Below, piece by piece: positions 10,080-59,444 of a stretch of DNA of 64,000 nt. Both the position numbers and the translations under genes were made by a program. The notes beneath the pieces are model-generated. The model ran no database searches. It worked only from the letters and a program-made list of their open reading frames with translations, and was not told where the DNA came from. Source of the DNA: Candidatus Uhrbacteria bacterium (lineage in GTDB: Bacteria > Patescibacteriota > Patescibacteriia > UBA9934 > GWF2-40-263); assembly GCA_016188425.1 (NCBI GenBank), contig JACPHX010000006.1, forward strand, positions 28,585 to 92,584, written 5' to 3'. How positions within the stretch are numbered: the first letter of the stretch is position 1; every line of letters starts with the position of its first letter.

Positions 10080-10178
10080 AGGGAAGAGTCGCAAAAGGCG
10101 CAAGGGGCACAGGAGGCGCAAGGGAACGAATGTTTATCTTGCTTTTTTGGCTGATTCCTTTATCATCCAGGACAAGCT

Positions 10179-10730
10179 ATGCGCATTCATCGACATCGAC
10201 AACGTAAACCTAAGTATAACGTCCAAGAGTACCGAGTCAACCAAACCATCACCGCGCCGCAGGTACGGGTCGTCGATGAGGATGGAACGGCCTACGGCGT
10301 TTTGGATATCGCCTCGGCATTGACCCTCGCCGCCCAGAAGGAAAAGGATCTGGTCGAGGTCTCCCCCAAGGGTGATCCGCCGGTCTGCCGTCTCTTGAAC
10401 TACGGTCACTTCCGCTACCAGAAGGAAAAGGAAGCGCGCAAAGCCAAAACGCAGTCCCATGAAGTGGAAGTCAAAGGCGTGCGCCTCACGGTTCGCATGG
10501 GTGAAGGCGACTGGGCCGTTCGGCTAGGCCAGGCAAAAAAATTCCTCGAGCGCGGAGACAAAGTCCGACTCGAACTCATCCTTCGTGGGCGTGAAAAAGC
10601 TCACAAAGAGGTCGGTCAGGATCGCATCAACGAATTCATGGTAGACCTCAAAGGTTTTTTCCCGTTGCGAGTCGAACAGACCGTTACCTTCCAAGCTGGT
10701 CGTTTCATTGCAATTCTAGCTCGGGAATAA
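10179..10730 (+). CDS. infC: Translation initiation factor IF-3
   Basis: ...ITAPQVRVVDEDGTAYGVLDIASALTLAAQKEKDLVEVSPKGDPPVCRLLNYGHFRYQKEKEARKAK... is a classic IF-3 sequence; true start codon may be non-AUG. Confidence 0.8.
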   Translation: MRIHRHRQRKPKYNVQEYRVNQTITAPQVRVVDEDGTAYGVLDIASALTLAAQKEKDLVEVSPKGDPPVCRLLNYGHFRYQKEKEARKAKTQSHEVEVKGVRLTVRMGEGDWAVRLGQAKKFLERGDKVRLELILRGREKAHKEVGQDRINEFMVDLKGFFPLRVEQTVTFQAGRFIAILARE

Positions 10731-10863
10731 AGGGGACAGACGGTTTGACAGGTTCCCTTCGCTCCCCTATGCTTGCAGCGACATACGGATGAATCCACAG
10801 GCGAATGTTTGCGGGCAGTCCGTGGGAGGGTTGCAGACCCGCCCCAACCTCACATTATTTTGT

Positions 10864-11025
10864 ATGAAATTGAAGACACACAAGGCACTGAAACGCCGGG
10901 TTCGGGTGACCAAAACCGGGAAAACCATGAAGCGATACGTTGGGCAGAACCATTTCAACGCCCGCGATACTGGAAAAGCCAGCCGCAAAAAACGCCGCGA
11001 CGTCCAATTCGCGCACAACCACTAA
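10864..11025 (+). CDS. rpmI: Ribosomal protein L35
   Basis: MKLKTHKALKRRVRVTKTGKTMKRYVGQNHFNARDTGK... L35 signature; infC-rpmI-rplT gene order. Confidence 0.8.
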   Translation: MKLKTHKALKRRVRVTKTGKTMKRYVGQNHFNARDTGKASRKKRRDVQFAHNH

Positions 11026-11192
11026 GAGGCTATCTCAAAAATCCTTTTCGACCGGCTCGGGCCAAAACGGCCTGCAATCGGTTCAGGATTCGTCGAAATA
11101 GTCCACACTATTCCTCCTCACCCTTCACCGATTTCGGCTCGTTTTGACCTCGACCCGGTTCGAAAATTATTTTTGAAATAACCTCTTCTATG

Positions 11193-11608
11193 CCACGTGT
11201 AAAACGCGGGATGCTTCACCTGAAGAAGCGCCGCACCATCCTCTCCCGCACCAAAGGGATGAAGTGGGGCCGCAAGTCCAAACTGCGCCTCGCCCGTATC
11301 GCGGCCTCTCCCGCACCAAAGGGATGAAGTGGGGCCGCAAGTCCAAACTGCGCCTCGCCCGTATCGCGGCCATCAAAGCCGGGGTATACGCCCATCGCGA
11401 CCGCCGCAACAACAAACGCAACTTCCGCCGTCTGTGGCAGGTTCGCATCAATGCCGCCGTTCGCCCACACGGGACAACCTATAGCAAATTCATCCACGAA
11501 TTGAGCACGAAAGGCATCATAGTGGATCGCAAAATCCTCGCCCTCCTTGCCAAGGATTACCCAGCCGCTTTTGAGGGAATCGTGAAGCAAGTCATGGCGA
11601 CCAAGTAA
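11193..11608 (+). pseudogene. rplT: Ribosomal protein L20 gene, frameshifted by a perfect 65-bp tandem duplication (intact L20 is restored if one copy is removed)
   Basis: ATG at 11193 gives MPRVKRGMLHLKKRRTILSRTKGMKWGRKSKLRLARIAA, then the duplicated 65 nt shifts frame to a TGA. Second copy continues in another frame as ...IKAGVYAHRDRRNNKRNFRRLWQVRINAAVRPHGTTYSKFIHEL..., the L20 consensus. Confidence 0.75.
11242..11371 (+). repeat. Perfect 2 x 65-bp tandem duplication inside rplT
   Basis: 11242-11306 and 11307-11371 are identical (tctcccgcaccaaagggatgaagtggggccgcaagtccaaactgcgcctcgcccgtatcgcggcc). Confidence 0.9.
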
Positions 11609-11619
11609 ATTTTGGAAAG

Positions 11620-11754: not shown

Positions 11755-12978
11755 ATGGAAATCAGACGATACTCGGGCAAAAACCAGTTCTGGCTCATGA
11801 TCAGGAGCCCGGACATCATCACTGTGGAGATCACAGTGTTCGGAGAAAACGGAAAGGTTATTCAGTCGCCGACGCCGAAGACCCCGCTCCGAGTGGGTCC
11901 CGTCGGCCCCTCGTTCTCGGATCAACACCCCGGCAAAATGGGGTACACCTTCTCCGTTCAGCAGACGAAGAACAACATGACGGTAGGGCCGAACATGACC
12001 TTCTCCTTCAAAAAAGAAGAGGTAGTGAAAGGGGATCAACAATGGCTCGATGATCCGACGCTTCAAGCGCCGGCTCCGATCGCACCCGCGGCTCCGACCA
12101 CCGCGGCCGCAGGATCAGCTCCAACGACCACGGTGTCTCCGCTTCTCACGGGAGCAGCGGTCGTCCCACCGACGGCAGGAGGATCCTCGGCTCTCCCTGA
12201 CCCATTCATCCCAAGCCAGATTTTGGCCGCCATGGGACAACCGGTAGCGGCTGCTCCGACGGAAGCAGATGATGAGGCGAAGGTCGCCGCGGAGGTCGCC
12301 AGGCAAGCGGAAGAGGCGGCATCGTCGCGACCGAAGGTCCCAATGGGGAATCTCTTTCCCAAGAAAGAGCCAGTGGGAACGAAGAAGAAACAAGAGGAAA
12401 AAACAAAAAAAGGAGCAACCGAAACGAACTGGCCCTTCTGGGCTCTTCTCCTTGTGGGAATCTGCATCGGTGGAAAATGGATCTGGGACTCGCAACAGGA
12501 ATCCAAGACACAGGGAACCTTGTTGCTTGGAACCAAGGATGCGGGGACGAACGAAGGGCATGTTCTCACCTTCGAGGACCAGCCAATCAAAGATGCCTCG
12601 CCGCCCCCCGCGCCCGCAGTCGAGTCCCACTCCCCAGACGCTTCCGTCACACCGGAACAACTACGACGGTGCGGGTCGGGGCTTCATCCGACCAACCAAG
12701 GGGTCTCCTGCGAGCCAAGAGGAGAAGGAGCGATCCGTTCGCTTCAACTGGACCAGGGAAACTTCAAGATGGTCTGCCAGAAGGACGGCAAAAAGAGAGC
12801 CGTCCTGATGAGAGACACGGATTTCACGGAAGCGACGGGGATTTACCTCTCCTGCTTCCGAGAGACCTGGCAGTGCGATCCGCAGACCGATGCGGATTGC
12901 CAGAAACGCAAGGATGAGCTGACCAACGGGGGCTGGAAACGTCTCCAGGACTACGCCACCGACCCAGACAAACTGTAA
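11755..12978 (+). CDS. Hypothetical single-pass membrane protein with C-terminal Cys-rich extracytoplasmic domain (VSCEPxGxGxIRS...)
   Basis: Start MEIRRYSGKNQFW with GAGGAGGA 8 nt upstream. Pro/Ala-rich linker, TM (WPFWALLLVGICIGGKWIW), C-terminal Cys domain paralogous to the C-terminus of the next gene. Confidence 0.5.
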   Translation: MEIRRYSGKNQFWLMIRSPDIITVEITVFGENGKVIQSPTPKTPLRVGPVGPSFSDQHPGKMGYTFSVQQTKNNMTVGPNMTFSFKKEEVVKGDQQWLDDPTLQAPAPIAPAAPTTAAAGSAPTTTVSPLLTGAAVVPPTAGGSSALPDPFIPSQILAAMGQPVAAAPTEADDEAKVAAEVARQAEEAASSRPKVPMGNLFPKKEPVGTKKKQEEKTKKGATETNWPFWALLLVGICIGGKWIWDSQQESKTQGTLLLGTKDAGTNEGHVLTFEDQPIKDASPPPAPAVESHSPDASVTPEQLRRCGSGLHPTNQGVSCEPRGEGAIRSLQLDQGNFKMVCQKDGKKRAVLMRDTDFTEATGIYLSCFRETWQCDPQTDADCQKRKDELTNGGWKRLQDYATDPDKL

Positions 12979-13129
12979 CCCGCAGGCGGGTACATGCAGA
13001 CCCGCCATCATCGCAGGGACGATCCGGACATCACGGATCGCCCCTTTTTCATTCTTGGGCTTGACTTTTCCATAAAAATTGGCATGATAAGGGCGGTCCA
13101 CAGAACAAAAACAGGAGAAAAATACGAAA

Positions 13130-15316
13130 ATGGCCAGTAAAGGACCTCTGGACTTCGATCCGGAAGAACAAACCTTGCCGCAAGGGGCTTTCGTTCCCTT
13201 GCTTAAACCCGAAAAGGGAGAAATCGGAGCACGCTACATGTCCGAACCGCCACCGCCCCCACACCCATCCGTTGCTCCCGACCTGTTGGGAGCAGCACCA
13301 CACGATTCCGACGATATCTCCACCGAGTTCGAGAGAGCATTCGCGCAGGATCCGGCGGGAGAGGAGTCGACACAGGAGTTGACAGACCAGGGAATCCTGG
13401 GACCGGCCGGCACGCACGATTCGGTTCCGCCGACGGCAGAGGCGGTCACCAGCGTGGCACAGCGCCTCGTGACCACTACGCTCATGGGAGACAGGGGGAA
13501 GGGGAAATCCTCGATCCCCGACGCGGCCACGGAAGTTGACCCGTCATTGGGTCAGCGAGCGATCCCTCCCTCCAGAACGGGAGCGACGCCGTCCTCCGAA
13601 TTCGCCAAGCTCGAGGAAGCGCGGGCGCAGACGAGCCGCGAACGCAAGAGGTTCGAGGAACTCTACAAACAAGCGACCGAACTGCGCGGAGAGGTCAACG
13701 ACCTGCGAGTGAAGGTGGAGCCGCTCAAAGCGGAACTGCCGGGGCTCGAGGCGCGCGCGAAGGCGGCAAAAGAGGCCGAGGCGAACGCCCGGGCGGAAGT
13801 GGCCCAACTCACCGACCAAGTCGGCCAGCTGGACACCCGGAAGGCGAGGCTCGAGGCCGAGATCGAAGAGATGTCGGTGGTCCTGTCGACCAGTAACAAC
13901 GAACTCAAGGACATCGATTCCACGATCGAGATACGACGCCACGATCTCGGAACCCTCGAGGAGAAGATCGAGACGGGCGCAGACGTGCTCGAGGCGATGG
14001 GCAGGGAAACGGACGCAAGTCTGAAGAAGATGGCGGAGGCGAAGAGCGCCACGGCGGGGGCGGAGACGTATCTCTTGGACCTGTCCAGCCAAATCGAGAA
14101 TCGGGAAGGAAAACGAGATGAGCTTGGCATCGAAATCAGCAAGCTCATTGCTGATCGCAAAGCCGCCGCCTCCAACCTGACGCAGCTCGAAGCGAACCTC
14201 GAGGGTGTGCGCACGGAGCTGAACGCGCAGACAAAGCAGTTGGAAGGGATCGTCGCGAAGAAGGAGGCGGCTCTCGCGGAGCTCTCGGACAAGGTGACGC
14301 AGAAAGAGGCGGCGCTTGCGGCCGCAGAGGAAGGACAAAGGAGAGTGATGGAAGAAACGAAAAAACAGCAAGAAGCCCTGGCGGCAATCAATGCCGAGAT
14401 CGGTGTGATCGAGAAGGACCTGACGGCCAAGAAAGCCCAACGGGACGCCATAGCACAGCAAGTCCAAGAGCAGACGAATGCGTTGGAGTCGCTCAAGTCA
14501 CGTGCCGAGGCCGCGGCACAGAACCCCGTCGCCGTCACCCACGGAAATCTCCTGGATCCGAGCGGAATCCCGAATTTCCCCTTGGGGAAGGACAGCAAGC
14601 CGGCCCCCGCCACGGATCCGAAGCCATCCCAGACCATTGGGACGGCATCGAACCATGGCGGAACGATGGATCAGCGGACGCATCCCGAGCCGCAGCCCTC
14701 GTCGCCGCAGTATTCGTCCGTGACCCGCAACAAGACCGATAAGGAAAACAAGGACATTGAAACCGCGAGCGGCGCCTCGCGTGGCGTTCTGGGCATCGCC
14801 TTCATCCTCGTGATCCTCGGCCTGTTGGGATGGGGTGCCTACTCCATTGCCAAGGATCCGCTCACCGCCTGGTTCAACAAGCCGGCGGCAGTCGTGGTAC
14901 CCCCACCGAGCGAGGCATCCGAAGAGGAGGAGACGGCCACGGAGGAAGCATCGGAGGATTCGGCGCCAGAGGTCATTCCCGCGGCACCGACGAAGGACAG
15001 ACGGCCCATCATTCCGACCCAAGCCCCGACGACGCCATCGGCGACGTCCGCGGTCAGCTGTGAGCCCTACGGGGCGGGCGAGATACGGTCGTTTGACATC
15101 AAAGACGGCCGCGTGCTCCTGCAATGCGGGACGGATTGCTACCGCGCGACGTTCGCGGCGATCGAGAAGCAAACCGGCTCCAAGATCTACGAAGCGCGCA
15201 GGGCGTACCAGTGCACAGAGAATTCCTGTGCCGACGCGCGGAAGCAATTCCGAGAAGCCGGCTGGGATCCCTCGGCCAGCAAAGAAGCATTCAGTTCCTC
15301 GACTGAGTGCAAGTGA
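13130..15316 (+). CDS. Long coiled-coil membrane protein (728 aa) with the same C-terminal Cys-rich domain
   Basis: ~300-aa heptad-like Ala/Glu/Lys/Leu-rich segment (LEARAKAAKEAEANARAEVAQL...), TM (VLGIAFILVILGLLGWGAY), C-terminus VSCEPYGAGEIRSFD.... Confidence 0.55.
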   Translation: MASKGPLDFDPEEQTLPQGAFVPLLKPEKGEIGARYMSEPPPPPHPSVAPDLLGAAPHDSDDISTEFERAFAQDPAGEESTQELTDQGILGPAGTHDSVPPTAEAVTSVAQRLVTTTLMGDRGKGKSSIPDAATEVDPSLGQRAIPPSRTGATPSSEFAKLEEARAQTSRERKRFEELYKQATELRGEVNDLRVKVEPLKAELPGLEARAKAAKEAEANARAEVAQLTDQVGQLDTRKARLEAEIEEMSVVLSTSNNELKDIDSTIEIRRHDLGTLEEKIETGADVLEAMGRETDASLKKMAEAKSATAGAETYLLDLSSQIENREGKRDELGIEISKLIADRKAAASNLTQLEANLEGVRTELNAQTKQLEGIVAKKEAALAELSDKVTQKEAALAAAEEGQRRVMEETKKQQEALAAINAEIGVIEKDLTAKKAQRDAIAQQVQEQTNALESLKSRAEAAAQNPVAVTHGNLLDPSGIPNFPLGKDSKPAPATDPKPSQTIGTASNHGGTMDQRTHPEPQPSSPQYSSVTRNKTDKENKDIETASGASRGVLGIAFILVILGLLGWGAYSIAKDPLTAWFNKPAAVVVPPPSEASEEEETATEEASEDSAPEVIPAAPTKDRRPIIPTQAPTTPSATSAVSCEPYGAGEIRSFDIKDGRVLLQCGTDCYRATFAAIEKQTGSKIYEARRAYQCTENSCADARKQFREAGWDPSASKEAFSSSTECK

Positions 15317-15385: not shown

Positions 15386-15437
15386 TACAAAAAATCACCT
15401 TTTCAGGTGATTTTTTGGCGGACCGGACGGGATTCCT
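15386..15437 (-). repeat. Duplicate of the tRNA-Asp 3' end (22 nt) plus its terminator hairpin (~48 nt, 1 mismatch)
   Basis: caaaaaatcaccttttcaggtgattttttggcggaccggacgggattc matches 15567-15614 (terminator plus 3' end of the intact tRNA-Asp). Confidence 0.7.
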
Positions 15438-15592
15438 CCTCATCCGTCGTTCGCGGTGCCGGGGCGGCACATGCTCACTCCTCCTTCGGAGCCTGGGGCG
15501 TCCAAAACGTGAAGCAGTTCACGTTTTGGCCGTCCCCTTCGAATCCCGTCCGATCCGCCACACACAAAAAACCACCTTTTCAGGTGATTTTT

Positions 15593-15670
15593 TGGCGGAC
15601 CGGACGGGATTCGAACCCGCGATCTTCTCCGTGACAGGGAGACGTGTTAACCGGGCTACACCACCGATCC
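15593..15670 (-). tRNA. tRNA-Asp (GTC), CCA encoded
   Basis: rc GGATCGGTGGTGTAGCCCGGTTAACACGTCTCCCTGTCACGGAGAAGATCGCGGGTTCGAATCCCGTCCGGTCCGCCA; cloverleaf with anticodon loop CTGTCAC; terminator hairpin caccttttcaggtg plus T-run directly 3'. Confidence 0.85.
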
Positions 15671-18780: not shown

Positions 18781-18798
18781 CATAAAATACAAAGGGGG

Positions 18799-18975
18799 GG
18801 TGAACAAGAGAAACCAAGGGCGAACAAGAGTGAACAGGAGAGATGGAAGAAAACTATCCTAATTGGAACAAACGAACGAAGACGGAGTTCAAAAATCAAA
18901 AATTATCAATGTCTCTTTCCTTCTCCCTTGTTCTCACTTGTTCACCCTTGTCATCCCTTGTTCACCTTCCTCCCC
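18799..18975. repeat. CAAGG-type short-tandem-repeat element, inverted pair (10-mer units GGTGAACAAG) flanking a 65-bp AT-rich spacer
   Basis: Left arm ggtgaacaagagaaaccaagggcgaacaagagtgaacagg; right arm is the imperfect reverse complement (cttgttctcacttgttcacccttgtcatcccttgttcacc). Between the ftsZ stop and nrdR start. Confidence 0.6.
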
Positions 18976-20279
18976 TACATCATTTTCTTCCTAATAAACG
19001 CCGGGATCTCCATGTCTTCTTCTTCGGAATGCGCGGGGGGATTGCTCATGGGCGAGCGAGGAGCATTCGGCCGATCCATGGGAGGGAGAGGTTTTGGACG
19101 AGGCGGTTCCGGGGCGCGCATCGGAGGAGGATCTATTCGGTATTCATTGGGTTTCATCCGTACAGGCATCTGCTTTGGTTGATACGGAGGGATGGAGGGG
19201 GGAGGAGAGGGGGGGGAGGCGGAGGGAGAACGGCGTTCTGGTTCCCTGGGACGCAATAAATTCCCCGGGGTCCAGACGCCTTGGGAAGGAACTTCAACGG
19301 CATCTGGCGTGACCCGACGGCGCTCACGGCTATCGAACCCCGTCGCCACGACAGAGATCCGAATTTCGTCTTTCAAATTCGGGTCAACGTTCGCGCCAAA
19401 AATAACCTTTGCATCTTCATCGGCTGAACCAGTGATGACCTTCGCCGCCTCGGCTACCTCGTGCATACCCATATCTTCCCCACCGGTAATCGTAAACAGG
19501 ATGCCTTTGGCCCCGTCGATGGAAAGCTCCAGCAGTGGACTGGCGACGGCCTGCTTGGCCGCATCCACCGCCCTATTCTCTCCGCTTGCCTTTCCGATAC
19601 CCATAAGGGCGGAACCGGAATTTTCCATAATCGCCTTCACGTCGGCAAAGTCGACATTGATAAGACCCGGGATGGTGATGAGTTCAGAAATGCCTTGCAC
19701 CCCCTGCCGAAGGACATCGTCCACTACGCGGAAGGCGTCTAGGAGCGACGTCTTCTTATCGATAATTTGCAGCACCCGGTCATTGGGGATGGTGATGATC
19801 GCGTCTACATACTGGCTTAACCGCTCATAGGCCTCGTCCGCGATACGGCGCCGCTGCGCCCCTTCAAACCCAAAAGGCTTGGTGACAACCGCCACCGTGA
19901 GCGCCCCGAGGTCTTTGGCGATCTTCGCCACCTCTGGGCCGCCGCCTGAACCAGTGCCACCACCCAGGCCACAGGTGAGGAACACCATGTCTGCTCCGGT
20001 GAGTGCCTCTCGCAACTCGTTCTGATTCTCCTCCGCCGCCCGCTTGCCCACTTCCGGATTCATGCCCGCTCCCAAACCTCGCGTGAGCGTTTTCCCGATG
20101 GCAATCTTCTGCATGGCTAAATTTTGGTTCAAGGCCTGAACATCGGTGTTCACGGCAATGAACTGCACCCCCTTTATTTCGTCACGGATCATGCGATTGA
20201 GCGCGGCTCCCCCACCCCCGCCAATGCCAACAACCTTTATTTTCGCGAAGGTTTCGATATCCGGTTTCACTTCACCCAT
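18975..20279 (-). CDS. ftsZ: Cell division protein FtsZ with Pro-rich C-terminal linker
   Basis: KIKVVGIGGGGGAALNRM...GLGGGTGSGGGP tubulin signature. Confidence 0.9.
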   Translation of the reverse strand: MGEVKPDIETFAKIKVVGIGGGGGAALNRMIRDEIKGVQFIAVNTDVQALNQNLAMQKIAIGKTLTRGLGAGMNPEVGKRAAEENQNELREALTGADMVFLTCGLGGGTGSGGGPEVAKIAKDLGALTVAVVTKPFGFEGAQRRRIADEAYERLSQYVDAIITIPNDRVLQIIDKKTSLLDAFRVVDDVLRQGVQGISELITIPGLINVDFADVKAIMENSGSALMGIGKASGENRAVDAAKQAVASPLLELSIDGAKGILFTITGGEDMGMHEVAEAAKVITGSADEDAKVIFGANVDPNLKDEIRISVVATGFDSRERRRVTPDAVEVPSQGVWTPGNLLRPREPERRSPSASPPSPPPSIPPYQPKQMPVRMKPNEYRIDPPPMRAPEPPRPKPLPPMDRPNAPRSPMSNPPAHSEEEDMEIPAFIRKKMM

Positions 20280-22150: not shown

Positions 22151-22662
22151 AGACGTGAGTCGATGGAGAGCGATTTCAGAATCCGTTCTTGGAGCGGGAA
22201 CATCTGTTTGGCATCGACGGGACGTTCATGGTCGAATCCGAACAAATGAAGCAGGCCGTGAACAAGGAGGAAGACGACCTCGTCGCGGGTAGCGTGGCCG
22301 CGCTCAAGCGCCTGGCGGCGAGCTTGATCGTAGGAGATGAGGACTTCGCCCACGACCCCCCTGCCCCCCTGCCCCCATTCCGCGGCACCCCCCCTGCCCC
22401 CCTTGGCAGGGGGGTTCTGCAGGGGGAAGGACAGGACGTCGGTGAGGCGGTCCTTTCCGCGGTAGTGGCGATTGATGGATTGCATCTGTTTGGGGCCGAC
22501 GAAGGCGACGGAGACGAGCCAAACCCCCCTGCCCCCCTTTGGAGGGGGGTTCTTCGAAAGGGCAAGGGCGACGGCGTCTGTGGTACGGTGCGCCAAAGCC
22601 AAAGGGAGGCGTTGCCCCCCTTTGAGTATCGACTGGTTTAGGTCCAGATGTATGGTCGGCAT
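22147..22662 (-). CDS. ybeY: Endoribonuclease YbeY (with two in-frame Gly/Pro-rich insertions)
   Basis: HGLLHLFGFDH zinc motif, YRGKDRLTDVLSFP. Two extra NPPxKGGRG segments are encoded by G-run/C-run DNA. Confidence 0.8.
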   Translation of the reverse strand: MPTIHLDLNQSILKGGQRLPLALAHRTTDAVALALSKNPPPKGGRGVWLVSVAFVGPKQMQSINRHYRGKDRLTDVLSFPLQNPPAKGGRGGAAEWGQGGRGVVGEVLISYDQARRQALERGHATRDEVVFLLVHGLLHLFGFDHERPVDAKQMFPLQERILKSLSIDSRL

Positions 22663-22762
22663 AAGGCAGGACGCAAGGGGCGCAAGAGGTCCAAGAGGCG
22701 CAAGGGGAGGAATCTTTGGGTGAGATTTAAACCAACCCGCAGGACGGTTTGGAAACCTGCCG

Positions 22763-23752
22763 TTACGGGATGATTTCGATACTGTTGATCATCATCTGGA
22801 ATGTCTGCAAATAATCGATGGTGGATTTGCCGTCTCCGTCGTAGACCAGGGAATAGGAGCTATTCCCGATGACAACCCAGGCCTTGAGCTGATCCTCGGA
22901 CATGAGCATTGGGTAGCCGTTCTTGGTTTTCGTTTCAAAGATCTTCTCTTGCGGGAATTGCTCATCGTGCCATTTCCGCAAAGAAACGATGTCGTCCTGA
23001 ACGCCCCCCGTGTTTACCGACACGCTCTCTGCGCTTGGGACGACAAATTTTAGCAGAGGTTCCTTCTCGCTTTTCCCATCCACTTTCGTCCAGATCGCGG
23101 GATAGAGCAAACGAATCCCACCCTTTCCAAACGGAACCAGGTCGACGGACTTCACAAGCCCCGTCTGCAACAAAGTGGCGGGGGCGGTCCCGTTGGGATT
23201 GTAGCGGTGGAATACTTCGTTCCCATCCAGGAATCCGTCCTTATCCGTGTCTGGTAACCGAGGATCGGTCTTGTAGATATTATTTTCCTCAACGTCCGTC
23301 AGCCCATCGCTATCGGAATCAATCCCCGGCGTCTTTACCGCGGAGACAGGGGGTTTCACCTCTGGGGGTTTCGGCGGCTCGACGATAGGAGGAACAACAG
23401 GGGGCTTAGGTTGAACGATCGGTGCTGGCTCCGGAGCGAGCCACTTAGGAATAAGAAAAAAGGCGGCGATCCCCCCAGCCACAAGGAACAGAAACAAAAA
23501 CACGACGAAGATCATTTTCTTGGAAGAACCTTTACGAGAAAGCGCAAGGGGCGCAGGAGGCACAGGGGGCGCAAGGGGTTTGGGCGAAGGATGAGGGACT
23601 GGGACGGACGTTTTTGCAGCGGGCTCGACGAGCTTTACCTCGGCTCCGTGGCGGTAAGCGACTGGCATCGTGAAAAGACGCATGCCACCATTGGAAGATG
23701 CGACGGTTTCAGATGCGGGGATTTGAAAGGCCATGGCGCCAGCCCCAGGCAT
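22763..23752 (-). CDS. Membrane protein with Pro-rich N-terminal tail, TM, TSP3-like Ca-binding repeats and C-terminal domain
   Basis: IDSDSDGLTDVEENNIYKTDPRLPDTDKDGFLDGNEVFHRYNP thrombospondin-type-3-like DxDxDG repeats. TM (MIFVVFLFLFLVAGGIAAFFL). N-terminal ...PKPLAPPVPPAPLAL is encoded by a GCGCAAGGG-type DNA repeat. Confidence 0.5.
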   Translation of the reverse strand: MPGAGAMAFQIPASETVASSNGGMRLFTMPVAYRHGAEVKLVEPAAKTSVPVPHPSPKPLAPPVPPAPLALSRKGSSKKMIFVVFLFLFLVAGGIAAFFLIPKWLAPEPAPIVQPKPPVVPPIVEPPKPPEVKPPVSAVKTPGIDSDSDGLTDVEENNIYKTDPRLPDTDKDGFLDGNEVFHRYNPNGTAPATLLQTGLVKSVDLVPFGKGGIRLLYPAIWTKVDGKSEKEPLLKFVVPSAESVSVNTGGVQDDIVSLRKWHDEQFPQEKIFETKTKNGYPMLMSEDQLKAWVVIGNSSYSLVYDGDGKSTIDYLQTFQMMINSIEIIP

Positions 23753-23755
23753 AGG

Positions 23756-24442
23756 TTATGGGGTTACAGGTGCAACAGGAGCCGGAAGAAGCTTCCCTTC
23801 CCCCGCGGGGTTATAGCCGTTTTTTACTTCTGTGCCATCCGCAAACCCATCGCCATCGGAATCGGCATTTTTTGGATTAGTTTTGTATTTCATGATTTCC
23901 TCCCGGTCGGACAACCCGTCTCCGTCGGTATCCGCCACGCTTGGATTCGTCCCGTAAAACGCTTCTTCTTGGTCTGTCAGGCCATCGCCATCCGTATCCG
24001 TAGCGGCCACAGGTGCTGGAGTTGGGGTGGTTATTGGAGCAACTGGAGGAGCTTCTGTCGTCGGTTCCACAACAGGCGGAGTGACTGGCTCTGTGGGAGG
24101 CGCTTGGGTGTTCGGCGGCGCTTGTGGAGCAGGTTGTGGCGTCTGATCGAGAAACGGAATCCCCTTTGACTGTTGTGCCAGCAATGTAAACGCCACGTAT
24201 GCCGCGGCGACAATGACGACTAAAACGCCGACGACAATGAGAATTGCCTTCCATGGGAAACCGCCACGGGAGGACTCTTCCAGGGGCGCAGGGGGCGCAA
24301 GAGGCACAAGGGGCGCAGGGGGTTCGGAAGGGAGGGGGACGGGAGACGGGAGGCGGGGAGCGGAGGGCGTTGGCAAAGCGGGAGGGGCTTCTGTGGTGTC
24401 CGCGAACATATCTTCGGGCTCTGGGGTGAGTTGGTCGGGCAT
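23756..24442 (-). CDS. Membrane protein with TM and three TSP3-like repeats; ends ...NGYNPAGEGKLLP...
   Basis: Paralogue of the downstream gene; DTDGDGLTDQEE..DTDGDGLSDREE..DSDGDGFADGTE. Start uncertain: the ORF extends to 24490 through a repeat arm. Confidence 0.5.
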   Translation of the reverse strand: MPDQLTPEPEDMFADTTEAPPALPTPSAPRLPSPVPLPSEPPAPLVPLAPPAPLEESSRGGFPWKAILIVVGVLVVIVAAAYVAFTLLAQQSKGIPFLDQTPQPAPQAPPNTQAPPTEPVTPPVVEPTTEAPPVAPITTPTPAPVAATDTDGDGLTDQEEAFYGTNPSVADTDGDGLSDREEIMKYKTNPKNADSDGDGFADGTEVKNGYNPAGEGKLLPAPVAPVTP

Positions 24443-24443
24443 A

Positions 24444-24601
24444 GGGGGAAGGGTGACCAAGGGTGAACAAGAGAGAACAAGGGTGAACAAGGGGGGGAAT
24501 TAGTAGGACGTTAACAATCAGAACAAATGAAACAAATCATTTTCATGTTTTTATAAAACTATTCGCTTCCTCCCCTCTTGTTCTATCTTGTTCACCCTCC
24601 T
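24444..24601. repeat. CAAGG-type short-tandem-repeat element, inverted pair (GGTGAACAAG units) flanking a 69-bp AT-rich spacer
   Basis: gggtgaccaagggtgaacaagagagaacaagggtgaacaagg ... cctcttgttctatcttgttcaccctcc. Confidence 0.6.
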
Positions 24602-38608: not shown

Positions 38609-38709
38609 AAAGGTCGAAGGTCAAAGTTCGAAGGCCGAAGGAAGGTTTTGTCTTTTTTAAAACAATGCCTTCTTCCAACCTTCGACCTTCAGAATTCGAC
38701 CTTCGACCT
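38609..38709. repeat. GAAGG-type short-tandem-repeat element, inverted pair (GTCGAAG 7-mer units) flanking ttttgtcttttttaaaacaatg
   Basis: aaggtcgaaggtcaaagttcgaaggccgaaggaagg ... ccttcttccaaccttcgaccttcagaattcgaccttcgacctt. Confidence 0.65.
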
Positions 38710-38733
38710 TATTTCTCAGCGATGTCTTCCCTT

Positions 38734-45263: not shown

Positions 45264-45295
45264 CGTCCCCTTCCTTTTTCTCCCCCCTCTCAGAG

Positions 45296-46487: not shown

Positions 46488-46578
46488 CAAGTTTCAAGGG
46501 TCGCAAGGGCGACAAGGGTTTCAAGAGCAAATGATTTAAGACAAACGCCCTTGCGACCCTTATAACACTTGAAACCCT
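46481..46578. repeat. CAAGG-type short-tandem-repeat element, inverted pair (9-mers GTTTCAAGG/GTCGCAAGG/GCGACAAGG)
   Basis: tttcaagggtcgcaagggcgacaagggtttcaagag ... gcccttgcgacccttataacacttgaaacccttgcaacccc; between convergent dprA and ABC exporter genes. Confidence 0.65.
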
Positions 46579-46592
46579 TGCAACCCCTCTCT

Positions 46593-49252: not shown

Positions 49253-49698
49253 GGCCGAGGAAGAAGCGGCCGAAGCGTATTCAATCGTTTCAGCTTTTCA
49301 TCGATCCTCTCTCGTAATTGCTCTGAGATAAGTGCCATAATCCTTAATATGGTTTACTTGCTTTTTGACACTATACCATATTAAGGAAAACAGCTCAATA
49401 CTCGCGATAACTCGTTCATCTTCACACAAAACAAAAATCCCTTCCGCGCACATCACCAAAGTGACGAGCGAGGAAGGGATCCCGACCGGCGCGTTCAAGA
49501 CGATGAGCGTGTGGTGCCAATCGGGAACGAGATGGTAATTGAAGAATGCAGGAGTACCTCGTCACTGCCATGTGGCAGACAGCTATTGGGGAAAATGCCC
49601 AGCAAAATGAAGAAAGGATGGCTTTTCCTCCTTCAGCGGGATTCCCCAATAAGCTAGTAAAATAGCATAAAATGGGGGGTTTATCAATCGGCGGGGAT

Positions 49699-49784
49699 GG
49701 TTCGCAAGGGTTTCAAGGGTGACAAGAGTCTCAAGGGCATGTTTTTCCAAGTGCGCTTGCAACCCTTGAAACCCTTCCCCCTCC
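49699..49784. repeat. CAAGG-type short-tandem-repeat element, inverted pair, immediately upstream of the topA promoter
   Basis: ggttcgcaagggtttcaagggtgacaagagtctcaagggc ... gcgcttgcaacccttgaaacccttccccctcc; followed by TTGACT-N16-TAGAAT. Confidence 0.65.
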
Positions 49785-49857
49785 TTCCTTGACTTCCCCT
49801 CTCCTCTACGTAGAATCTCCTCCCATCGGGTACAATGTCCTCCAATAACCGCTCCAC

Positions 49858-52210: not shown

Positions 52211-52471
52211 GCATCGTTTTCGCAATACTCAGATCACTATAAACCACCACCCAATCCATCTTGCACACCACACCGAGAGCCGGTAGGTAATGGCTCCAAA
52301 TGACGTGTACGCCGGATCCGCATTCGTCACGAGCACCTCCGCCTCAAGCCCCCCCAGACCTTGTCCTTATCGCCAGGACTTTGTATGTTGGATGTATTGC
52401 TGTGGTTTTATTTTTCCCAAACCAACATTTCAACCCTTTCTCCCCTTTCCGCCCTTTCAGCCCTTGCTTTT

Positions 52472-54847: not shown

Positions 54848-54986
54848 ATTAAGGGCGCAAAGGGCGCAGGAGGTCCAAGGGGCGCAAGGGGAGGGATGAG
54901 AAACACGAAGTCGAAAGTGTAATGCGCGCTTGCTCGCCTATATTCCTGCGCCCCTTGGACCCCTTGCGCCTCTTGCGCCTTCCTTA
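54848..54986. repeat. CAAGG-type short-tandem-repeat element, inverted pair (GGGCGCAAG 9-mers) between parA and parB
   Basis: aagggcgcaaagggcgcaggaggtccaaggggcgcaagggg ... cctgcgccccttggaccccttgcgcctcttgcgcc. Confidence 0.65.
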
Positions 54987-57037: not shown

Positions 57038-57051
57038 GGGACACGCTTTTT

Positions 57052-58023
57052 TTATTGGGCATCCGACCACGCGTACGCATCAAACGACCACGCCGCGAGA
57101 GCTTCGGCATCAAAGAAACGGTCGTCTTTTCCCGGCGCGCCCAGGACGACCACGATAAGATCACCACCGTTCTCTTCTCTCACGGCCGCGGCGAGACAAT
57201 ACCCTGCCGTTGGAAGATATCCCGTTTTCCCAGAAAGGATCTGGTAGGGTTCCTCGTCCAAAAAACTACTGAAAAGCTCGTTGGTATTCGCAAGCTTGAT
57301 CGTCCTTCCTCGAGACGTCGTAAGCGTCAATTCCCGTTTGGTGACGAACTCCGTGATCTGGGGCTGCTCCATGGCGGCATTGAGAAGGAGAGCGACATCA
57401 AACGCCGACGAACGGTTCTCGGGAAGGATCCCGGAAGGATCAGCGAACGTCGTCTGGTCCATGTGGAGTTCTTGCGCTTTGGCGTTCATCTTCTCGATGA
57501 ACTGTTCGGGCGAAAGCCCGCTCGCGCGCGCCAAGGCCGCGGTCGCGGAATTATCCGACGCGATGAGGCTCGAAGCCAGCAGGTCGCGCACGCGTACCGG
57601 ATCGTTGGGAGGGATATGTTCCAATCCGCCGTAGATGACATCCTCTGAATAAATCTGATCCTGTCCCGCCAAATCCATGCCACTCTCAAGCGCCACCAGC
57701 GCGGTCATGAGCTTCGTAATACTGCCGATCGACCGCACGTCCCCCCCGCCTTTTTCATAGAGGACGGCCTGGGTGCGCCGATCCATCACCAGCACGCTGC
57801 GAGCCGCGGTTTCTATCCCCAAACGGGACGGATCGATTTTGAGAGGCGCGTGTTCTGGGAGACGCAACGCAAGGTCGCGTCCAAGACGCGTTTGAGTCTG
57901 AACGATACCAACAGGAACAAACATAGAGGCAGGCGGATGCTCGAGCGCCCGGCCGTCCATGGGGACAACGACAAAACTCAACGAGAGAAGCCACGTGTGG
58001 AAAAGGGAGGCGAAGGCATTCAT
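57052..58023 (-). CDS. D-alanyl-D-alanine carboxypeptidase (S11, PBP5/6-like)
   Basis: Signal anchor; SITKLMT (SxxK), SDNSAT (SxN), KTG-like motif in order. Confidence 0.75.
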   Translation of the reverse strand: MNAFASLFHTWLLSLSFVVVPMDGRALEHPPASMFVPVGIVQTQTRLGRDLALRLPEHAPLKIDPSRLGIETAARSVLVMDRRTQAVLYEKGGGDVRSIGSITKLMTALVALESGMDLAGQDQIYSEDVIYGGLEHIPPNDPVRVRDLLASSLIASDNSATAALARASGLSPEQFIEKMNAKAQELHMDQTTFADPSGILPENRSSAFDVALLLNAAMEQPQITEFVTKRELTLTTSRGRTIKLANTNELFSSFLDEEPYQILSGKTGYLPTAGYCLAAAVREENGGDLIVVVLGAPGKDDRFFDAEALAAWSFDAYAWSDAQ

Positions 58024-58595
58024 ACGGTTGGTTCCTCGTGTGCCCGTACCAGCATGTCGGTTATCTTTTTATGGTCATTGAAACGCGTGAAGTCGGGCAA
58101 TTCCTGGATAGAATGCAGGCCCATATGACGGAGAAAGTCTGCAGAAACGGAATAAACCGCCTGCAACTTCGTGGCATCATCACGTTCCTCGATGAGGCCC
58201 CGCATCAGAAGGTTCCGCAAAATGAGGGAGCAATTGACTCCACGGATCTCTTCAATTTCTGGCCGCGTCACCGGGCCCCGGTACGCGATGATCGTCAGCG
58301 TCTCAAGCGATGGCCGTGTCAGCTCCCCCGCCACTTCCTGCCGGAACGCATCTTGAAGAAACGCAGACGCCGCCGGATTCGTCACCAGCTGGACCTGGTC
58401 CTGCGTCTCCAGCACATGGATGCCCGACTCTGGTGCATTCATCGTCTTCGCCCAAGCCCCGACCTCTCCCCTCACCTCCCCCTCCTCCACCCCCAGCGCC
58501 CGCGCCAATGCCAAAAATCCCACCGGTTTTCCAGCGGCAAACAAATACGATTGTAGGTGCATCTTATTCATAGTGTTTGTCTTCTTCCCTCCCAT
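58020..58595 (-). CDS. scpB: Segregation and condensation protein B
   Basis: Tandem wHTH; ...TRPSLETLTIIAYRGPVTRPEIEEIRGVNCSLILRNLLMRGLIEE. Confidence 0.8.
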   Translation of the reverse strand: MGGKKTNTMNKMHLQSYLFAAGKPVGFLALARALGVEEGEVRGEVGAWAKTMNAPESGIHVLETQDQVQLVTNPAASAFLQDAFRQEVAGELTRPSLETLTIIAYRGPVTRPEIEEIRGVNCSLILRNLLMRGLIEERDDATKLQAVYSVSADFLRHMGLHSIQELPDFTRFNDHKKITDMLVRAHEEPTV

Positions 58596-58630
58596 TGCGC
58601 CCCTTGGACCCCCTGCGCCCCTTGCGCCCT
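58590..58630. repeat. GGGGCGCAAG-type short-tandem-repeat element, single arm (4 units)
   Basis: cccattgcgccccttggaccccctgcgccccttgcgccc between scpA stop and scpB start. Confidence 0.6.
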
Positions 58631-59333
58631 TAGTCTACCCTCTTTATCTCAATCTCCCCAAACGCTCCCGCTTGTACTGCCTGCACTGATCGAGAACGCA
58701 ATAGCTCCAAGAGAGCCAAGAAACTGACGACTACGTCAACTTTTCTCGACGCCCCTTTCACGACGTCCGAGAACAACATCCACGCCTTCCCCAAGATCGC
58801 TCCCCGCAGCGCCTCCATCCGTTCCTGTACCGTTGCCACCCGCGCAACCAGTCTCGTTTCCAGAGCAAAAAATGGTTCAAGCCGTTTGAGGATATCTTGG
58901 AAGCAAGAAGAGAGCTTGGAGGGATTCACGGAAGGAGGAGGGAAAAAACCGGAGAGCTTGGGGAGGGACATTCGGTCTCTGGCAAACATCGTCTGCGAGT
59001 GCGCGCCGAAGAGATTCTCGATATTCTTTGATGCCTCGATATACTGCTCATACAAACGCAGGCGTGCCGCGAGATCACCTTCTGGCTCATCTTCCATGAC
59101 GACAGACGGCATGAGCGCCCGCGCTTTTATGAGAAGGAGGGCGCAGGCCACCGTAAGAAAGTCTGCAATCTCCGTCGACGGGACTTCGTGAGCGTCCAGG
59201 TAACGCAGATACTCCTCTGTGACTTGGGAGAGGGAGACGTCGGTGATTGGCAGTCTGTTCTCACGGACAATCTCAAGCAAGAGGTGAAGGGGGCCGGAGA
59301 ATTGTTCGGTCGAAATTTCAAATGGCACAAGTG
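58630..59333 (-). CDS. scpA: Segregation and condensation protein A
   Basis: ...PFEISTEQFSGPLHLLLEIVRENRLPITDVSLSQVTEEYLRYL... ScpA N-terminus; probable GTG start ~59333. The ORF upstream extension is encoded by a repeat element. Confidence 0.7.
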
Positions 59334-59444
59334 AAGGGTTGAAAGGGCGGAAAGGCCTGAAAGGGCGGAAAGGTTCGATCAAAGCGAGACGACAGACCCG
59401 TTTCCTTTCCGCCGTCTCCGCCCTTTCAGGCCTTTCCGCCTTCG
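59332..59444. repeat. GAAAGG-type short-tandem-repeat element, near-perfect inverted pair (GCGGAAAGG 9-mers)
   Basis: gaagggttgaaagggcggaaaggcctgaaagggcggaaagg / tcctttccgccgtctccgccctttcaggcctttccgccttcgc around a 29-nt spacer; between aspS stop and scpA start. Confidence 0.7.

What the first reader, a model, noticed from the sequence alone, without database searches (positions are those of the whole stretch)
10093..59444. Dispersed family (~13 loci in 64 kb) of short-tandem-repeat elements built from 9-10-nt CAAGG/GAAGG/GAAAGG units, usually as inverted pairs around a short AT-rich spacer
Each element is 4-5 tandem 9-10-mers. Unit flavours are GGGCGCAAG, GGTGAACAAG, GTTTCAAGG/GTCGCAAGG, GTCGAAG and GCGGAAAGG. 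Elements occur either as a single arm or as two arms in inverted orientation able to form a 35-45-bp hairpin. Loci: 10093-10124, 18799-18975, 22669-22716, 23547-23590, 24281-24326, 24444-24601, 38609-38709, 46481-46578, 49699-49784, 52430-52470, 54848-54986, 58590-58630 and 59332-59444. Different loci use different unit sequences but keep the same architecture and the shared (C/G)AAGG core. I do not recognise these as REP/BIME, CRISPR or other described repeat classes. The window's density, roughly one per 5 kb, is striking. ORF callers will translate several as spurious N-terminal extensions (SmpB, ParB, ScpA, ScpB and the gene at 23756-24490).
Basis: seen in the sequence. Interest (0 to 1): 0.7.

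Follow-up and report, generated by a model that had tools for sequence, protein, structure and literature searches.

The report
Tandem-repeat hairpins filling gene junctions
A genome of an uncultured "Candidatus Uhrbacteria" bacterium carries an undescribed set of long hairpin-forming repeats, built from 7-10-base tandem units, that fill about a fifth of the DNA between its genes; they look like this lineage's own version of the intergenic palindromes known from other bacteria, and their function is untested.

Summary
The window (a Candidatus Uhrbacteria contig, CPR/Patescibacteria) has 21 tandem arrays of period 7-10, against 0.27 expected. Of the 20 arms of the family, 18 lie in the 9.9% of sequence that is intergenic (P~1e-16).

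Seven loci are paired. A purine-rich arm abuts the upstream gene end. A locus-specific core follows, AT-rich at five of the seven. A complementary pyrimidine-rich arm abuts the next gene. All seven fold into long hairpins on either strand (MFE -36 to -82 kcal/mol, z -4.4 to -9.9). Two listed loci (23547, 24281) lie inside coding Pro-rich tails.

Arms of one flavour share unit order, so they are copies. Spacers are unrelated. I found no target duplications, transposase, Cas or Tas gene.

Three related genomes have the same architecture with other units, some lacking AAGG. The purine-to-pyrimidine polarity holds in 16 of 16 paired elements. The ParA|ParB gap is 2-19 nt in eight relatives. It is 119-146 nt, with three unrelated palindromes, in the window and two relatives.

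Best reading: lineage-specific, fast-turnover, REP/BIME-like junction palindromes that act as RNA boundary hairpins. This is inferred. They are not CRISPR, TIGR, canonical REP/REPIN or G-quadruplex elements. The kind is a new variant of a known one; interest is moderate.

The parts
10093..10124 (-). Single arm of 3 units, GCGCA flavour (GCACA subtype). It is pyrimidine-rich in the sense of smpB and ends 13 nt before the smpB ATG (10079). It lies in the divergent smpB/infC gap.
18796..18974 (-). Paired element, GGTGAACAAG flavour (period 10), between the ftsZ stop (18975) and the nrdR start (18783). Arms 18796-18846 and 18912-18974; 65-nt spacer with 31% GC.
   Evidence: (MFE -77.6 sense, -67.0 antisense; z -7.5 and -7.2)
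22669..22713 (-). Single arm, GCGCA flavour (unit order GCGCA, GCGCA, GTCCA, GCGCA). It is pyrimidine-rich in the sense strand and ends 6 nt before the ybeY ATG (22662). It is 89% identical to the arm before parB.
23539..23584 (-). GCGCA-flavour copy (GCACA subtype), probably inside a coding region. It encodes ...PKPLAPPVPPAPLAL... just before the basic stretch and transmembrane helix of the TSP3-repeat paralog at 22763-23755.
24274..24328 (-). GCGCA-flavour copy (GCACA subtype) in frame inside the gene at 23756-24442. It encodes ...EPPAPLVPLAPPAPLEE... There is no in-frame start between it and the transmembrane helix.
24446..24601 (-). Paired element, GGTGAACAAG flavour. The left arm (24446-24497) ends 1 nt before the ATG at 24442. 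The right arm is 24568-24601. The 70-nt spacer has 26% GC. The gene to the right is probably 24608-25450 on the minus strand, whose stop is adjacent.
   Evidence: (z -4.7 and -4.8)
38609..38710 (-). Paired element, GTCGAAG flavour (period 7), in the 496-nt gap between hisS and a yqeY-like gene. Arms 38609-38644 and 38674-38710.
   Evidence: (MFE -55.4, z -9.9 in sense)
46488..46590 (.). Paired element, GTTTCAAGG/GTCGCAAGG flavour (period 9). It fills the whole gap between the convergent dprA stop (46487) and the ABC-transporter stop (46593).
49693..49786 (.). Paired element, GTTTCAAGG flavour, in the divergent fic-side/topA gap. Consensus promoter-like sites flank it on both sides and point outwards (49687-49659 on the minus strand, 49789-49816 on the plus strand).
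52426..52470 (+). Single pyrimidine-rich arm, complement of the GCGGAAAGG flavour (period 9). It ends 1 nt before the relA/spoT ATG (52472).
54851..54986 (-). Paired element, GCGCA flavour, between the parA stop (54984-54986, overlapped by the arm) and the parB ATG (54837). Arms 54851-54894 and 54944-54986. The purine-rich repeats run into the last parA codons, whose C-terminus differs from all relatives.
   Evidence: (MFE -78.8 and -81.7; z -9.2 and -6.6)
58590..58630 (-). Single arm, GCGCA flavour, purine-rich in the sense strand. It starts at the scpA stop codon (58630-58632) and ends about 20 nt before the scpB ATG (58571). It is 94% identical to the arm after parA.
59332..59444 (-). Paired element, GCGGAAAGG flavour (period 9). 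It fills the gap between the stop (59447) of the lysS-like class II aaRS gene and the scpA GTG start (59328). Arms 59332-59374 and 59402-59444.
   Evidence: (MFE -65.1 and -67.2; z -6.4 and -6.9)

Best explanation
These are non-coding gene-junction palindromes specific to a clade of higher-GC Uhrbacteria (CPR bacteria). They play the same role in the genome as REP/BIME-type elements but are built differently.

Anatomy. A full element has three parts: a purine-rich arm of 3-5 imperfect tandem units (7-10 nt) that starts at or inside the stop codon of the upstream gene; a locus-specific core, AT-rich at five of the seven paired loci; and a complementary pyrimidine-rich arm that ends 1-16 nt (in two cases about 65-75 nt) before the next start codon, or at the facing stop codon between convergent genes. 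Half elements (single arms) also occur.

Origin (inferred). The arms grow by slippage and are copied between junctions as modules of about 40 nt.

Proposed mechanism (inferred). The element is transcribed with its neighbours and folds into a hairpin with 24-67 predicted base pairs. The hairpin marks a transcript boundary. It blocks or pauses read-through and protects the upstream 3' end, as REP/BIME and bidirectional terminators do. In read-through RNA it also sequesters the G-poor leader of the downstream gene. That gene would then be expressed from its own promoter in the core, or only when ribosomes finishing the upstream gene open the base of the stem.

Polarity. Only the purine-first polarity is tolerated, because in this lineage, which uses almost no Shine-Dalgarno sequences, the region before start codons must stay G-poor.

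Shown versus inferred. Shown: anatomy, copy relationships, hairpin potential, polarity, and the derived, patchy distribution. Inferred: transcription, boundary or insulation function, and mode of spread.
For: - Arrays far above chance and strongly intergenic: 18 of 20 arms, P~1e-16; 18.7% of intergenic DNA; 11 of 31 gaps of at least 30 nt.
- Every paired locus folds to a long hairpin on both strands, z -4.4 to -9.9 in the window and -2.6 to -8.6 in relatives. Single arms barely fold.
- Arms abut stop and start codons. Ortholog alignments confirm the true ParB, ScpA and ScpB starts and the altered ParA C-terminus.
- Arms of one flavour share the same unit order and are 89-94% identical between loci, while their spacers do not align.
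- The same architecture, with other units, occurs in relatives L028, L030 and L186. Polarity is 16 of 16.
- In L028 the cores hold a canonical terminator (7339-7434, 12952-13074) or an extended -10 box, TGGTATAAT (3316-3383).
- The ParA|ParB gap is 2-19 nt in 8 relatives but 119-146 nt with three unrelated tandem-arm palindromes in the window, L030 and L186. L028 and L030 (ParB 81% identical) differ at three junctions.
- Window genes lack Shine-Dalgarno motifs (1 of 20) and have G-poor upstream regions (17% G).
- No transposase, Cas or Nop domain in 43 ORFs.
Against: - There is no expression data, so transcription and any RNA role are inferred.
- The sense strand is not favoured energetically (3 of 9 co-directional elements), so there is no G-U signature of a strand-specific RNA structure.
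- Consensus scans place 49693-49786 between two outward-facing promoter-like sites, where it might not be transcribed.
- None of the elements is followed by the T-run of a canonical intrinsic terminator, and canonical terminators exist elsewhere in the window.
- Presence or absence among close relatives and the tight ancestral junctions fit selfish or neutral insertion as well as function.
- Polarity follows automatically from palindromy once an element type exists, so 16 of 16 counts element types, not independent gene-relative choices.
- The sample is 64 kb plus eight related regions (five of about 20 kb and three short contigs of 2-7 kb), not whole genomes.
Confidence: 0.45

Rival explanations
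1. Selfish non-autonomous mobile DNA (MITE/REPIN-like). The about 40-nt arms are terminal inverted repeats or transposase-binding modules, mobilised in trans by an enzyme encoded elsewhere in the genome. Any effect on genes is incidental.
For: - Multiple copies share unit order and are 89-94% identical.
- The structure is palindromic and sits at intergenic sites.
- Presence differs between relatives with 81% identical ParB, and the occupied junctions are derived from tight ancestral ones.
- Two in-frame coding copies recall Rickettsia palindromic elements.
- Single arms resemble decayed REP singlets.
Against: - Spacers of same-flavour copies are unrelated.
- There are no target-site duplications, no GTAG/CGTC tag, and the arms are not palindromic on their own.
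- No transposase was found in 43 ORFs of the window.
- In L186 each of five junctions carries a different unit, which points to local origin.
- The exact arm sequence is absent from 185,579 species-representative genomes and from JGI metagenomes.
Confidence: 0.25
2. Neutral mutational by-product. Replication slippage plus template switching in a repair-poor CPR genome creates tandem arrays and then quasi-palindromes wherever selection is weak. There is no function and no mobility.
For: - Units are diverse, lineage-specific and even junction-specific.
- Other short-unit arrays sit in disordered coding segments (FtsZ linker 19189-19229, YbeY insertion 22356-22403, Pro-rich tails).
- Turnover is fast.
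- The native purine-rich end of parA (GAAGAAGG) could seed the arms in the window and L030.
Against: - Identical unit order at loci tens of kb apart cannot arise independently.
- Polarity is 16 of 16.
- The elements make up 18.7% of intergenic DNA in an otherwise tightly packed genome. That such genomes tend to lose useless DNA is general knowledge and was not tested here.
Confidence: 0.15
3. Binding arrays. The periodic purine core (AAGG and similar) or its complement is read by an oligomeric RNA- or DNA-binding protein (CsrA/TRAP-like, Rho, a nucleoid protein), or by the ribosome as Shine-Dalgarno and anti-Shine-Dalgarno mimics. The hairpin is the alternative, unbound state of a switch.
For: - There are 3-5 regularly spaced units per arm.
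- In the window, L028 and L030 the unit core resembles Shine-Dalgarno sequences (AAGGGG, AGGAGG, GAAGG) and the other arm resembles CCUCC/CCUU.
- The arms lie exactly at stop and start codons.
Against: - The period varies (7, 9 and 10 nt within one genome), and L186 uses unrelated cores (AAACGAC, AGTAGTA, CTACGAAC).
- The genome hardly uses Shine-Dalgarno sequences.
- No candidate binding protein was identified.
Confidence: 0.08
4. G-quadruplex or i-motif elements, or guide-RNA arrays of the CRISPR or TIGR type, or ordinary coding low-complexity DNA.
For: - GCGCA-flavour arms have 4-5 G-runs.
- TIGR arrays occur in CPR bacteria and use 8-12-nt repeats (PMC12045711).
- Nine-nt units are open in all six frames, and two copies are translated.
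Against: - The canonical G3+N1-7 motif fits only about 3 of 20 arms, and the other flavours and relatives have GG or no G-runs.
- There are no variable spacers between units, only 3-5 units, the loci are dispersed, and no Cas or Nop-domain gene is present.
- Periods of 7 and 10 nt and the intergenic enrichment exclude coding for 18 of 20 arms.
Confidence: 0.03

Closest known systems
REP/BIME and REPIN elements of proteobacteria (REP doublets forming hairpins; PMC3116915, PMC3733652)
   Same: They are short, non-coding, high-density extragenic repeats at gene junctions and 3' ends. They occur as inverted pairs that form hairpins, plus single remnants. The families are lineage-specific. The proposed roles are in termination and mRNA stabilisation.
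   Different: Each REP is itself a 20-40-bp imperfect palindrome tagged by GTAG or CGTC and is linked to a RAYT transposase. Here each arm is a direct tandem array that does not fold alone, carries no tag, has a locus-specific spacer, and no RAYT was seen.
MITEs co-transcribed with neighbouring genes, e.g. Neisseria Correia elements and enterobacterial ERIC (own knowledge; not verified in the paper library)
   Same: They have terminal inverted repeats that fold into long RNA hairpins within operon transcripts, insert close to coding sequences, and can carry promoter-like sequence. Reported effects are on RNA processing and stability.
   Different: Those elements have a conserved internal sequence and target-site duplications (TA for Correia). 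Here the internal region is not conserved, there is no duplication, and the arms are tandem repeats.
Bidirectional intrinsic terminators (A-tract, stem-loop, T-tract)
   Same: They share the purine-5', pyrimidine-3' polarity on both strands and the position between convergent genes. In L028 two elements enclose a canonical terminator hairpin.
   Different: There is no T-run after the stem. The stems are many times longer. The elements also lie between co-directional and divergent genes, directly against start codons.
Rickettsia palindromic elements (RPE) and mycobacterial MIRU (own knowledge)
   Same: RPE insert in frame into coding regions, as the copies at 23539 and 24274 appear to. MIRU are tandem repeats in intercistronic gaps of operons that touch the flanking stop and start codons.
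   Different: RPE are about 100-150-bp units without tandem substructure. MIRU units are 40-100 bp, are directly repeated, and do not form inverted pairs.
TIGR arrays of TIGR-Tas systems (PMC12045711)
   Same: They are found in CPR bacteria, are built from very short (8-12 nt) repeats, and some variants form stem-loops.
   Different: TIGR arrays alternate two repeats with 9-nt variable spacers, have 5-15 units of about 36 nt, and lie next to a Nop-domain Tas gene. None of this applies here (Pfam).

Membership tests
REP / REPIN (RAYT-associated) | Each repeat unit is itself a 20-40-bp imperfect palindrome | tested here: not met
   Single arms fold weakly or not at all (0 to -13.7 kcal/mol, 0-12 pairs). 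They are direct tandem arrays.
REP / REPIN (RAYT-associated) | GTAG or CGTC tetranucleotide tag at one end (PMC3733652) | tested here: not met
   A tag lies within 6 nt of an arm end in only 2 of 20 arms, with no consistent position.
REP / REPIN (RAYT-associated) | Extragenic, abundant, inverted doublets forming hairpins, with singlets as well | tested here: met
   18 of 20 arms are intergenic. There are 7 doublets and 4 intergenic singlets. Hairpin z-scores are -4.4 to -9.9.
REP / REPIN (RAYT-associated) | A RAYT (Y1 transposase) gene flanked by the repeats | not testable with these tools
   None was found among 43 ORFs of the window. The rest of the genome could not be fetched.
MITE | Terminal inverted repeats | tested here: met
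   The arms are 71-95% complementary.
MITE | Target-site duplication flanking the element | tested here: not met
   The longest shared flanking word is 2-4 nt and differs at every locus.
MITE | Internal sequence conserved among copies of a family | tested here: not met
   Spacers of same-flavour copies do not align.
CRISPR array | Repeats of 25-36 nt separated by unique spacers of similar size; cas genes nearby | tested here: not met
   Units are 7-10 nt, contiguous, and number 3-5 per arm. There are no Cas domains.
TIGR array (TIGR-Tas) | Two alternating 8-12-nt repeats interspaced by about 9-nt variable spacers, 5-15 units, adjacent to a Nop-domain Tas gene (PMC12045711) | tested here: not met
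   There is one unit type per arm with no variable spacers, the loci are dispersed, no Nop-domain hit was found, and my reading of the spacers found no box C/D motifs.
Canonical intrinsic terminator | Short GC-rich stem-loop followed by a T-run | tested here: not met
   None of the elements appears among the terminator-like sites in the two scanned stretches (9-26 kb and 37-57 kb). Loci 58590 and 59332 were outside those scans. Canonical terminators exist elsewhere, e.g. 41453-41414 and 55824-55791.
G-quadruplex motif | Four G3+ tracts with loops of 1-7 nt | tested here: not met
   The motif is present in about 3 of 20 arms (58590, 52430, part of 24281). It is absent from the other flavours and from most relatives' arms.
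Any Rfam family | Score at or above the family gathering threshold | tested here: not met
   Only tmRNA and tRNAs pass. The elements give sub-threshold hits (24-40 bits against thresholds of 64-137) to eukaryotic miRNA-precursor models, which are generic long hairpins.

The most novel reading that the evidence does not exclude
Higher-GC Uhrbacteria have repeatedly evolved a dedicated gene-boundary device. It is a purine-first, pyrimidine-last tandem-repeat palindrome that couples or insulates neighbouring genes. It would work at the RNA level in a lineage that initiates translation without Shine-Dalgarno sequences and often without leaders. On this reading the independent appearance of three unrelated versions at the same parA|parB junction reflects selection, not parasitism. 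The pyrimidine arm would be a functional leader, and the purine arm its anti-leader or 3'-end protector.
Probability: 0.25. Interest if true: 0.7.

Novelty: new variant of a known kind. Interest (0 to 1): 0.5.

Why it matters
CPR/Patescibacteria genomes are small and tightly packed, and their non-coding DNA has hardly been studied. Here about a fifth of the intergenic DNA in 55 kb is one kind of structured repeat that touches the stop and start codons of core genes (ftsZ, nrdR, parA, parB, scpA, scpB, topA, relA, smpB).

If the elements are functional, they point to an unstudied way of setting transcript and translation boundaries in organisms that largely lack Shine-Dalgarno sequences. If they are selfish or neutral, they show rapid gain of DNA at junctions that are otherwise 2-19 nt long.

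There is also a practical consequence. Because 9-nt units are open in all frames, they cause wrong start-codon calls and false N-terminal extensions in MAG annotation.

Tried and rejected
- Fetching the source genome failed. Exact-protein look-ups for a window protein and for ParB found nothing.
Both returned only single, unrelated hits in coding repeats of Streptomyces, Burkholderiales and others. A genome-wide census was therefore impossible.
I took this as noise, presumably from 9-nt-period coding repeats such as collagen-like genes; the hits were not inspected.
- A strand-specific RNA signature (more G-U pairs or better energy on the sense strand) was not found.
- Promoters inside spacers: consensus scans gave only scattered sites. 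An extended -10 box sits in one L028 loop and just 5' of the L030 element, so the placement is inconsistent.
- The mRNA circularisation idea (5' pyrimidine arm pairing with a 3' purine arm of the same gene) was rejected, because the two ends of scpA carry different flavours.
- DNA uptake sequences were rejected, because five different units occur within 64 kb.
- Phase-variable contingency repeats were judged unlikely, because the units are imperfect (68-91% matches) and sit next to housekeeping genes.
- IS91 target motifs (GAAC/CAAG) were noted in two flavours but are absent from the others.
- The literature search found no description of such elements in Uhrbacteria or CPR bacteria.

Full report
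SOURCE AND CONTEXT

The window is a contig of an uncultured Candidatus Uhrbacteria bacterium (CPR/Patescibacteria). Its ParB is 100% identical to an NCBI protein so named on a 112-kb contig. The next-closest ParB in 5.8 billion proteins is only about 63-64% identical.

Pfam annotation shows housekeeping genes: smpB, infC, nrdR, ftsZ, ftsA, ybeY, hisS, engA, pth, dprA, topA, relA/spoT, parA, parB, scpA, scpB and two class II aaRS genes. It also shows a 3485-aa ORF, which was not itself scanned against Pfam. No transposase, Cas or Nop domain appears. Rfam finds only tmRNA and five tRNAs at gathering score.

OBSERVATION CHECK

TRF finds the arrays at the listed coordinates, with period 7, 9 or 10, 3.7-4.7 copies and 68-91% matches. 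Two right arms are weaker: 49756-49776 has 2.3 copies, and 59402-59444 has no TRF row and rests. Reading the sequence confirms the unit flavours.

Merged arrays of period 7-10 with at least three copies number 21, against a mean of 0.27 in block-wise dinucleotide shuffles. The inverted-repeat finder recovers seven paired loci.

With a curated gene map, 9.9% of positions 9000-64000 are intergenic. Even so, 18 of the 20 arms of the family are intergenic (binomial P = 1.4e-16). The elements make up 18.7% of intergenic DNA and occupy 11 of 31 gaps of at least 30 nt.

The two exceptions are 23539-23584 and 24274-24328. They are in frame in the Pro-rich N-terminal tails (…PLAPPVPPAPL…, …PPAPLVPLAPPAPL…) of two tandem paralogous TSP3-repeat membrane proteins. 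For the second protein no in-frame start exists between the arm and the transmembrane helix.

ANATOMY

Each full element has a purine-rich arm, a spacer of 18-70 nt, and a complementary pyrimidine-rich arm. The arms sit against coding sequence.
- The purine arm begins at or within a few bases of the stop codon of ftsZ, parA, the lysS-like aaRS gene, scpA and dprA.
- The pyrimidine arm ends 1-16 nt before the start of the gene at 24442, relA, scpA, ybeY, nrdR, smpB and parB.
- Alignment of ortholog termini confirms the true starts of ParB, ScpA and ScpB. It also shows that the last ParA residues (…MKDGG*) differ from the conserved …MREEGVI* of seven relatives. The repeats therefore run into the gene end.
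- All seven paired loci fold into hairpins with 24-67 predicted pairs on both strands (MFE -36 to -82 kcal/mol, z -4.4 to -9.9). Single arms hardly fold.

COPIES, NOT INDEPENDENT SLIPPAGE PRODUCTS

Seven GCGCA-flavour arms match one 24-mer pattern exactly, against 0.00 expected. They keep the same order of variant units: GCGCA, GCGCA, GTCCA or GCACA, GCGCA. The arm before ybeY is 89% identical to the arm before parB, and the arm after parA is 94% identical to the arm after scpA. Homology stops at the arm ends, and spacers of same-flavour copies do not align. There are no target-site duplications and no GTAG/CGTC tags.

RELATIVES

Synteny around parB is conserved in eight related genomes.
- Three of them (L028 and L030 at 62-63% GC, L186 at 57% GC) show the same architecture at gene junctions, but with their own units: GAAGGC/CCTGAGGCC-type in L028 and xAAGG in L030.
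- L186 has five different units: AAACGAC, GGTTTGGGA, CTACGAAC, GTTGTAAGG and AGTAGTA. The AAGG core therefore does not define the class.
- L026 (54% GC) has tight junctions and no tandem arrays. The three low-GC relatives (41-47% GC) mostly have ordinary terminators, although L033 and L034 also carry a few long non-tandem inverted repeats. The three short contigs L184, L185 and L187 (42-65% GC) show only tight gaps or simple terminator hairpins.
- The ParA|ParB gap is 2-19 nt in eight relatives. It is 146, 119 and 131 nt, filled by three unrelated tandem-arm palindromes, in the window, L030 and L186.
- L028 and L030, whose ParB proteins are 81% identical, differ in presence at three junctions.

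The occupied state is thus derived and turns over quickly. In L028 two elements between convergent genes enclose a canonical terminator hairpin, and one operon-internal element has TGGTATAAT in its loop. This suggests that the arms flank native signals.

POLARITY

In all 16 paired elements (7 in the window, 6 in L028, 1 in L030, 2 in L186) the 5' arm is purine-rich (62-85% purine) and the 3' arm pyrimidine-rich, on either strand. Because the elements are palindromes, this is the same as saying that the pyrimidine version faces start codons and the purine version faces stop codons, at every junction type.

Six of seven intergenic single arms (window plus L186) also place the pyrimidine version, in sense, just before a start codon.

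Genes in the window without an arm also have G-poor upstream regions (17% G). Only 1 of 20 has a Shine-Dalgarno-like 4-mer, and several have a -10-like box 8-11 nt before the ATG. I infer that purine-rich or Shine-Dalgarno-like sequence directly before start codons is selected against in this lineage. That would filter out the opposite polarity.

WHAT IT IS NOT

- CRISPR and TIGR arrays need variable spacers and associated genes (PMC12045711). Neither is present.
- Canonical REP/REPIN need self-palindromic, tagged units and a RAYT gene (PMC3116915, PMC3733652). The first two were tested and not met. The RAYT could not be tested genome-wide.
- The MITE criteria of target duplication and conserved interior are not met.
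- The canonical G-quadruplex motif fits only about three arms.
- Rfam at relaxed thresholds gives only far sub-threshold matches to miRNA-precursor models, which are generic long hairpins.
- No element has a T-run like an intrinsic terminator in the two scanned stretches; loci 58590 and 59332 were not scanned.

MECHANISM

Best reading (confidence 0.45): these are REP/BIME-like junction palindromes of a new build. They are transcribed with their neighbours and fold into long hairpins that delimit transcripts, stabilise upstream 3' ends and sequester the downstream leader in read-through RNA. The arms grow by slippage and spread as modules of about 40 nt. The function is inferred. There are no expression data, there is no sense-strand energetic bias (3 of 9), and one element may lie between outward-facing promoters.

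Rivals:
- Selfish MITE/REPIN-like DNA (0.25).
- Neutral slippage and template-switch by-product (0.15).
- Protein- or ribosome-binding arrays (0.08).
- G-quadruplex, guide-array or coding readings (0.03).

LIMITS

The rest of the genome and any close relatives could not be obtained. All counts therefore come from 64 kb plus eight related regions: five of about 20 kb and three short contigs of 2-7 kb. No literature describing such elements in CPR bacteria was found.

Noticed in passing
window 45295-45413 (+) and 60874-61002 (-): A second, different hairpin family. Locus-specific 34-35-nt inverted arms (97% and 91% complementary) end in ...TTTATT / AATAAA.... They enclose a conserved loop that begins TTATTAACTCGCTTCTCGC (19 of 19 identical, 0 expected by chance) and ends CTCGTACGCTCRAACA. 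The loop carries an ATG and similar short peptides (MKMCARTLKQNKYS / MWARLVRSNTNKQS). One 3' arm contains the dprA start codon. The other element spans the gap between the two aaRS genes and runs into the 5' end of the lysS-like gene.
   Followed up: partly
window 11240-11369: A perfect 65-nt x 2 tandem duplication lies in the ORF after infC where rplT is expected (assignment by gene order and my reading of the peptide; no Pfam test). Its length is not a multiple of three, so it would break the frame. It is either an assembly artefact or a recent duplication.
   Followed up: no
window 22356-22403 (ybeY), 19189-19229 (ftsZ linker), 20496-20523 (ftsA 3' end), 24334-24357: Other short-unit arrays lie inside coding regions: (CCCCCCTG)n with a small internal hairpin gives a Gly/Arg-rich insertion in YbeY; (GGGAGGAGGG)n sits near the 3' end of ftsZ; and (CCCGCCT)n sits near the end of ftsA.
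   Followed up: partly
window, start regions of about 28 genes (e.g. parA 55751, asnS-like aaRS 62305): Almost no Shine-Dalgarno motifs (1 of 20 arm-less genes) and G-poor, C/T-rich upstream regions. Several genes have a -10-like box 8-11 nt before the ATG, preceded by a CCCTCC-type tract. The same holds before parA in four relatives, which suggests leaderless mRNAs.
   Followed up: partly
window 15388-15670: The 3' part of tRNA-Asp (15593-15670, minus strand) is partly duplicated 177 nt away (15411-15440 against 15588-15617, 87% identity). The terminator-like hairpin is also repeated (15388-15417 and 15565-15594). This could be the remnant of an integration site.
   Followed up: no
window 25454-35911 (-) and 1228-2520 (-): A 3485-aa ORF has internal 129-nt repeats (31023-31480). 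A neighbouring protein has 96-99-nt repeats and EGF/teneurin-like Pfam hits. Both are probably large surface proteins.
   Followed up: no
window 38711-39043 and 49253-49692: Two unusually long stretches for this genome have no supported gene, although the first is spanned by an unsupported 323-aa ORF (38648-39619, no Pfam hit). They lie next to elements 38609 and 49693. The second holds a 96-aa ORF without Pfam hits upstream of a Fic-domain gene, possibly its antitoxin.
   Followed up: no
L034 15952-16100; L033 1529-1648 and 10853-11168 / 13506-13900: Low-GC relatives carry other palindromic or dispersed repeats at the same junctions. One example is TGTCATTGCGAGGAG...CTCGCAATGACA. Another is an about 300-nt repeat present twice in L033.
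   Followed up: no
L186 3907-4941 and 17247-18287: The relative with five differently built tandem-arm junction elements also has a phage-type integrase gene and a reverse-transcriptase (RVT_1) gene in the same 20 kb. No link to the repeats was tested.
   Followed up: no
L012 87-110, L017 6173-6223, L007/L167 3492-3515: The GCGCA 24-mer also occurs in short or long GGCGCAAGG-type arrays in unrelated MAGs (Desulfovibrio, Burkholderiales, a termite-gut spirochaete). Some look non-coding, but their context was not examined.
   Followed up: no
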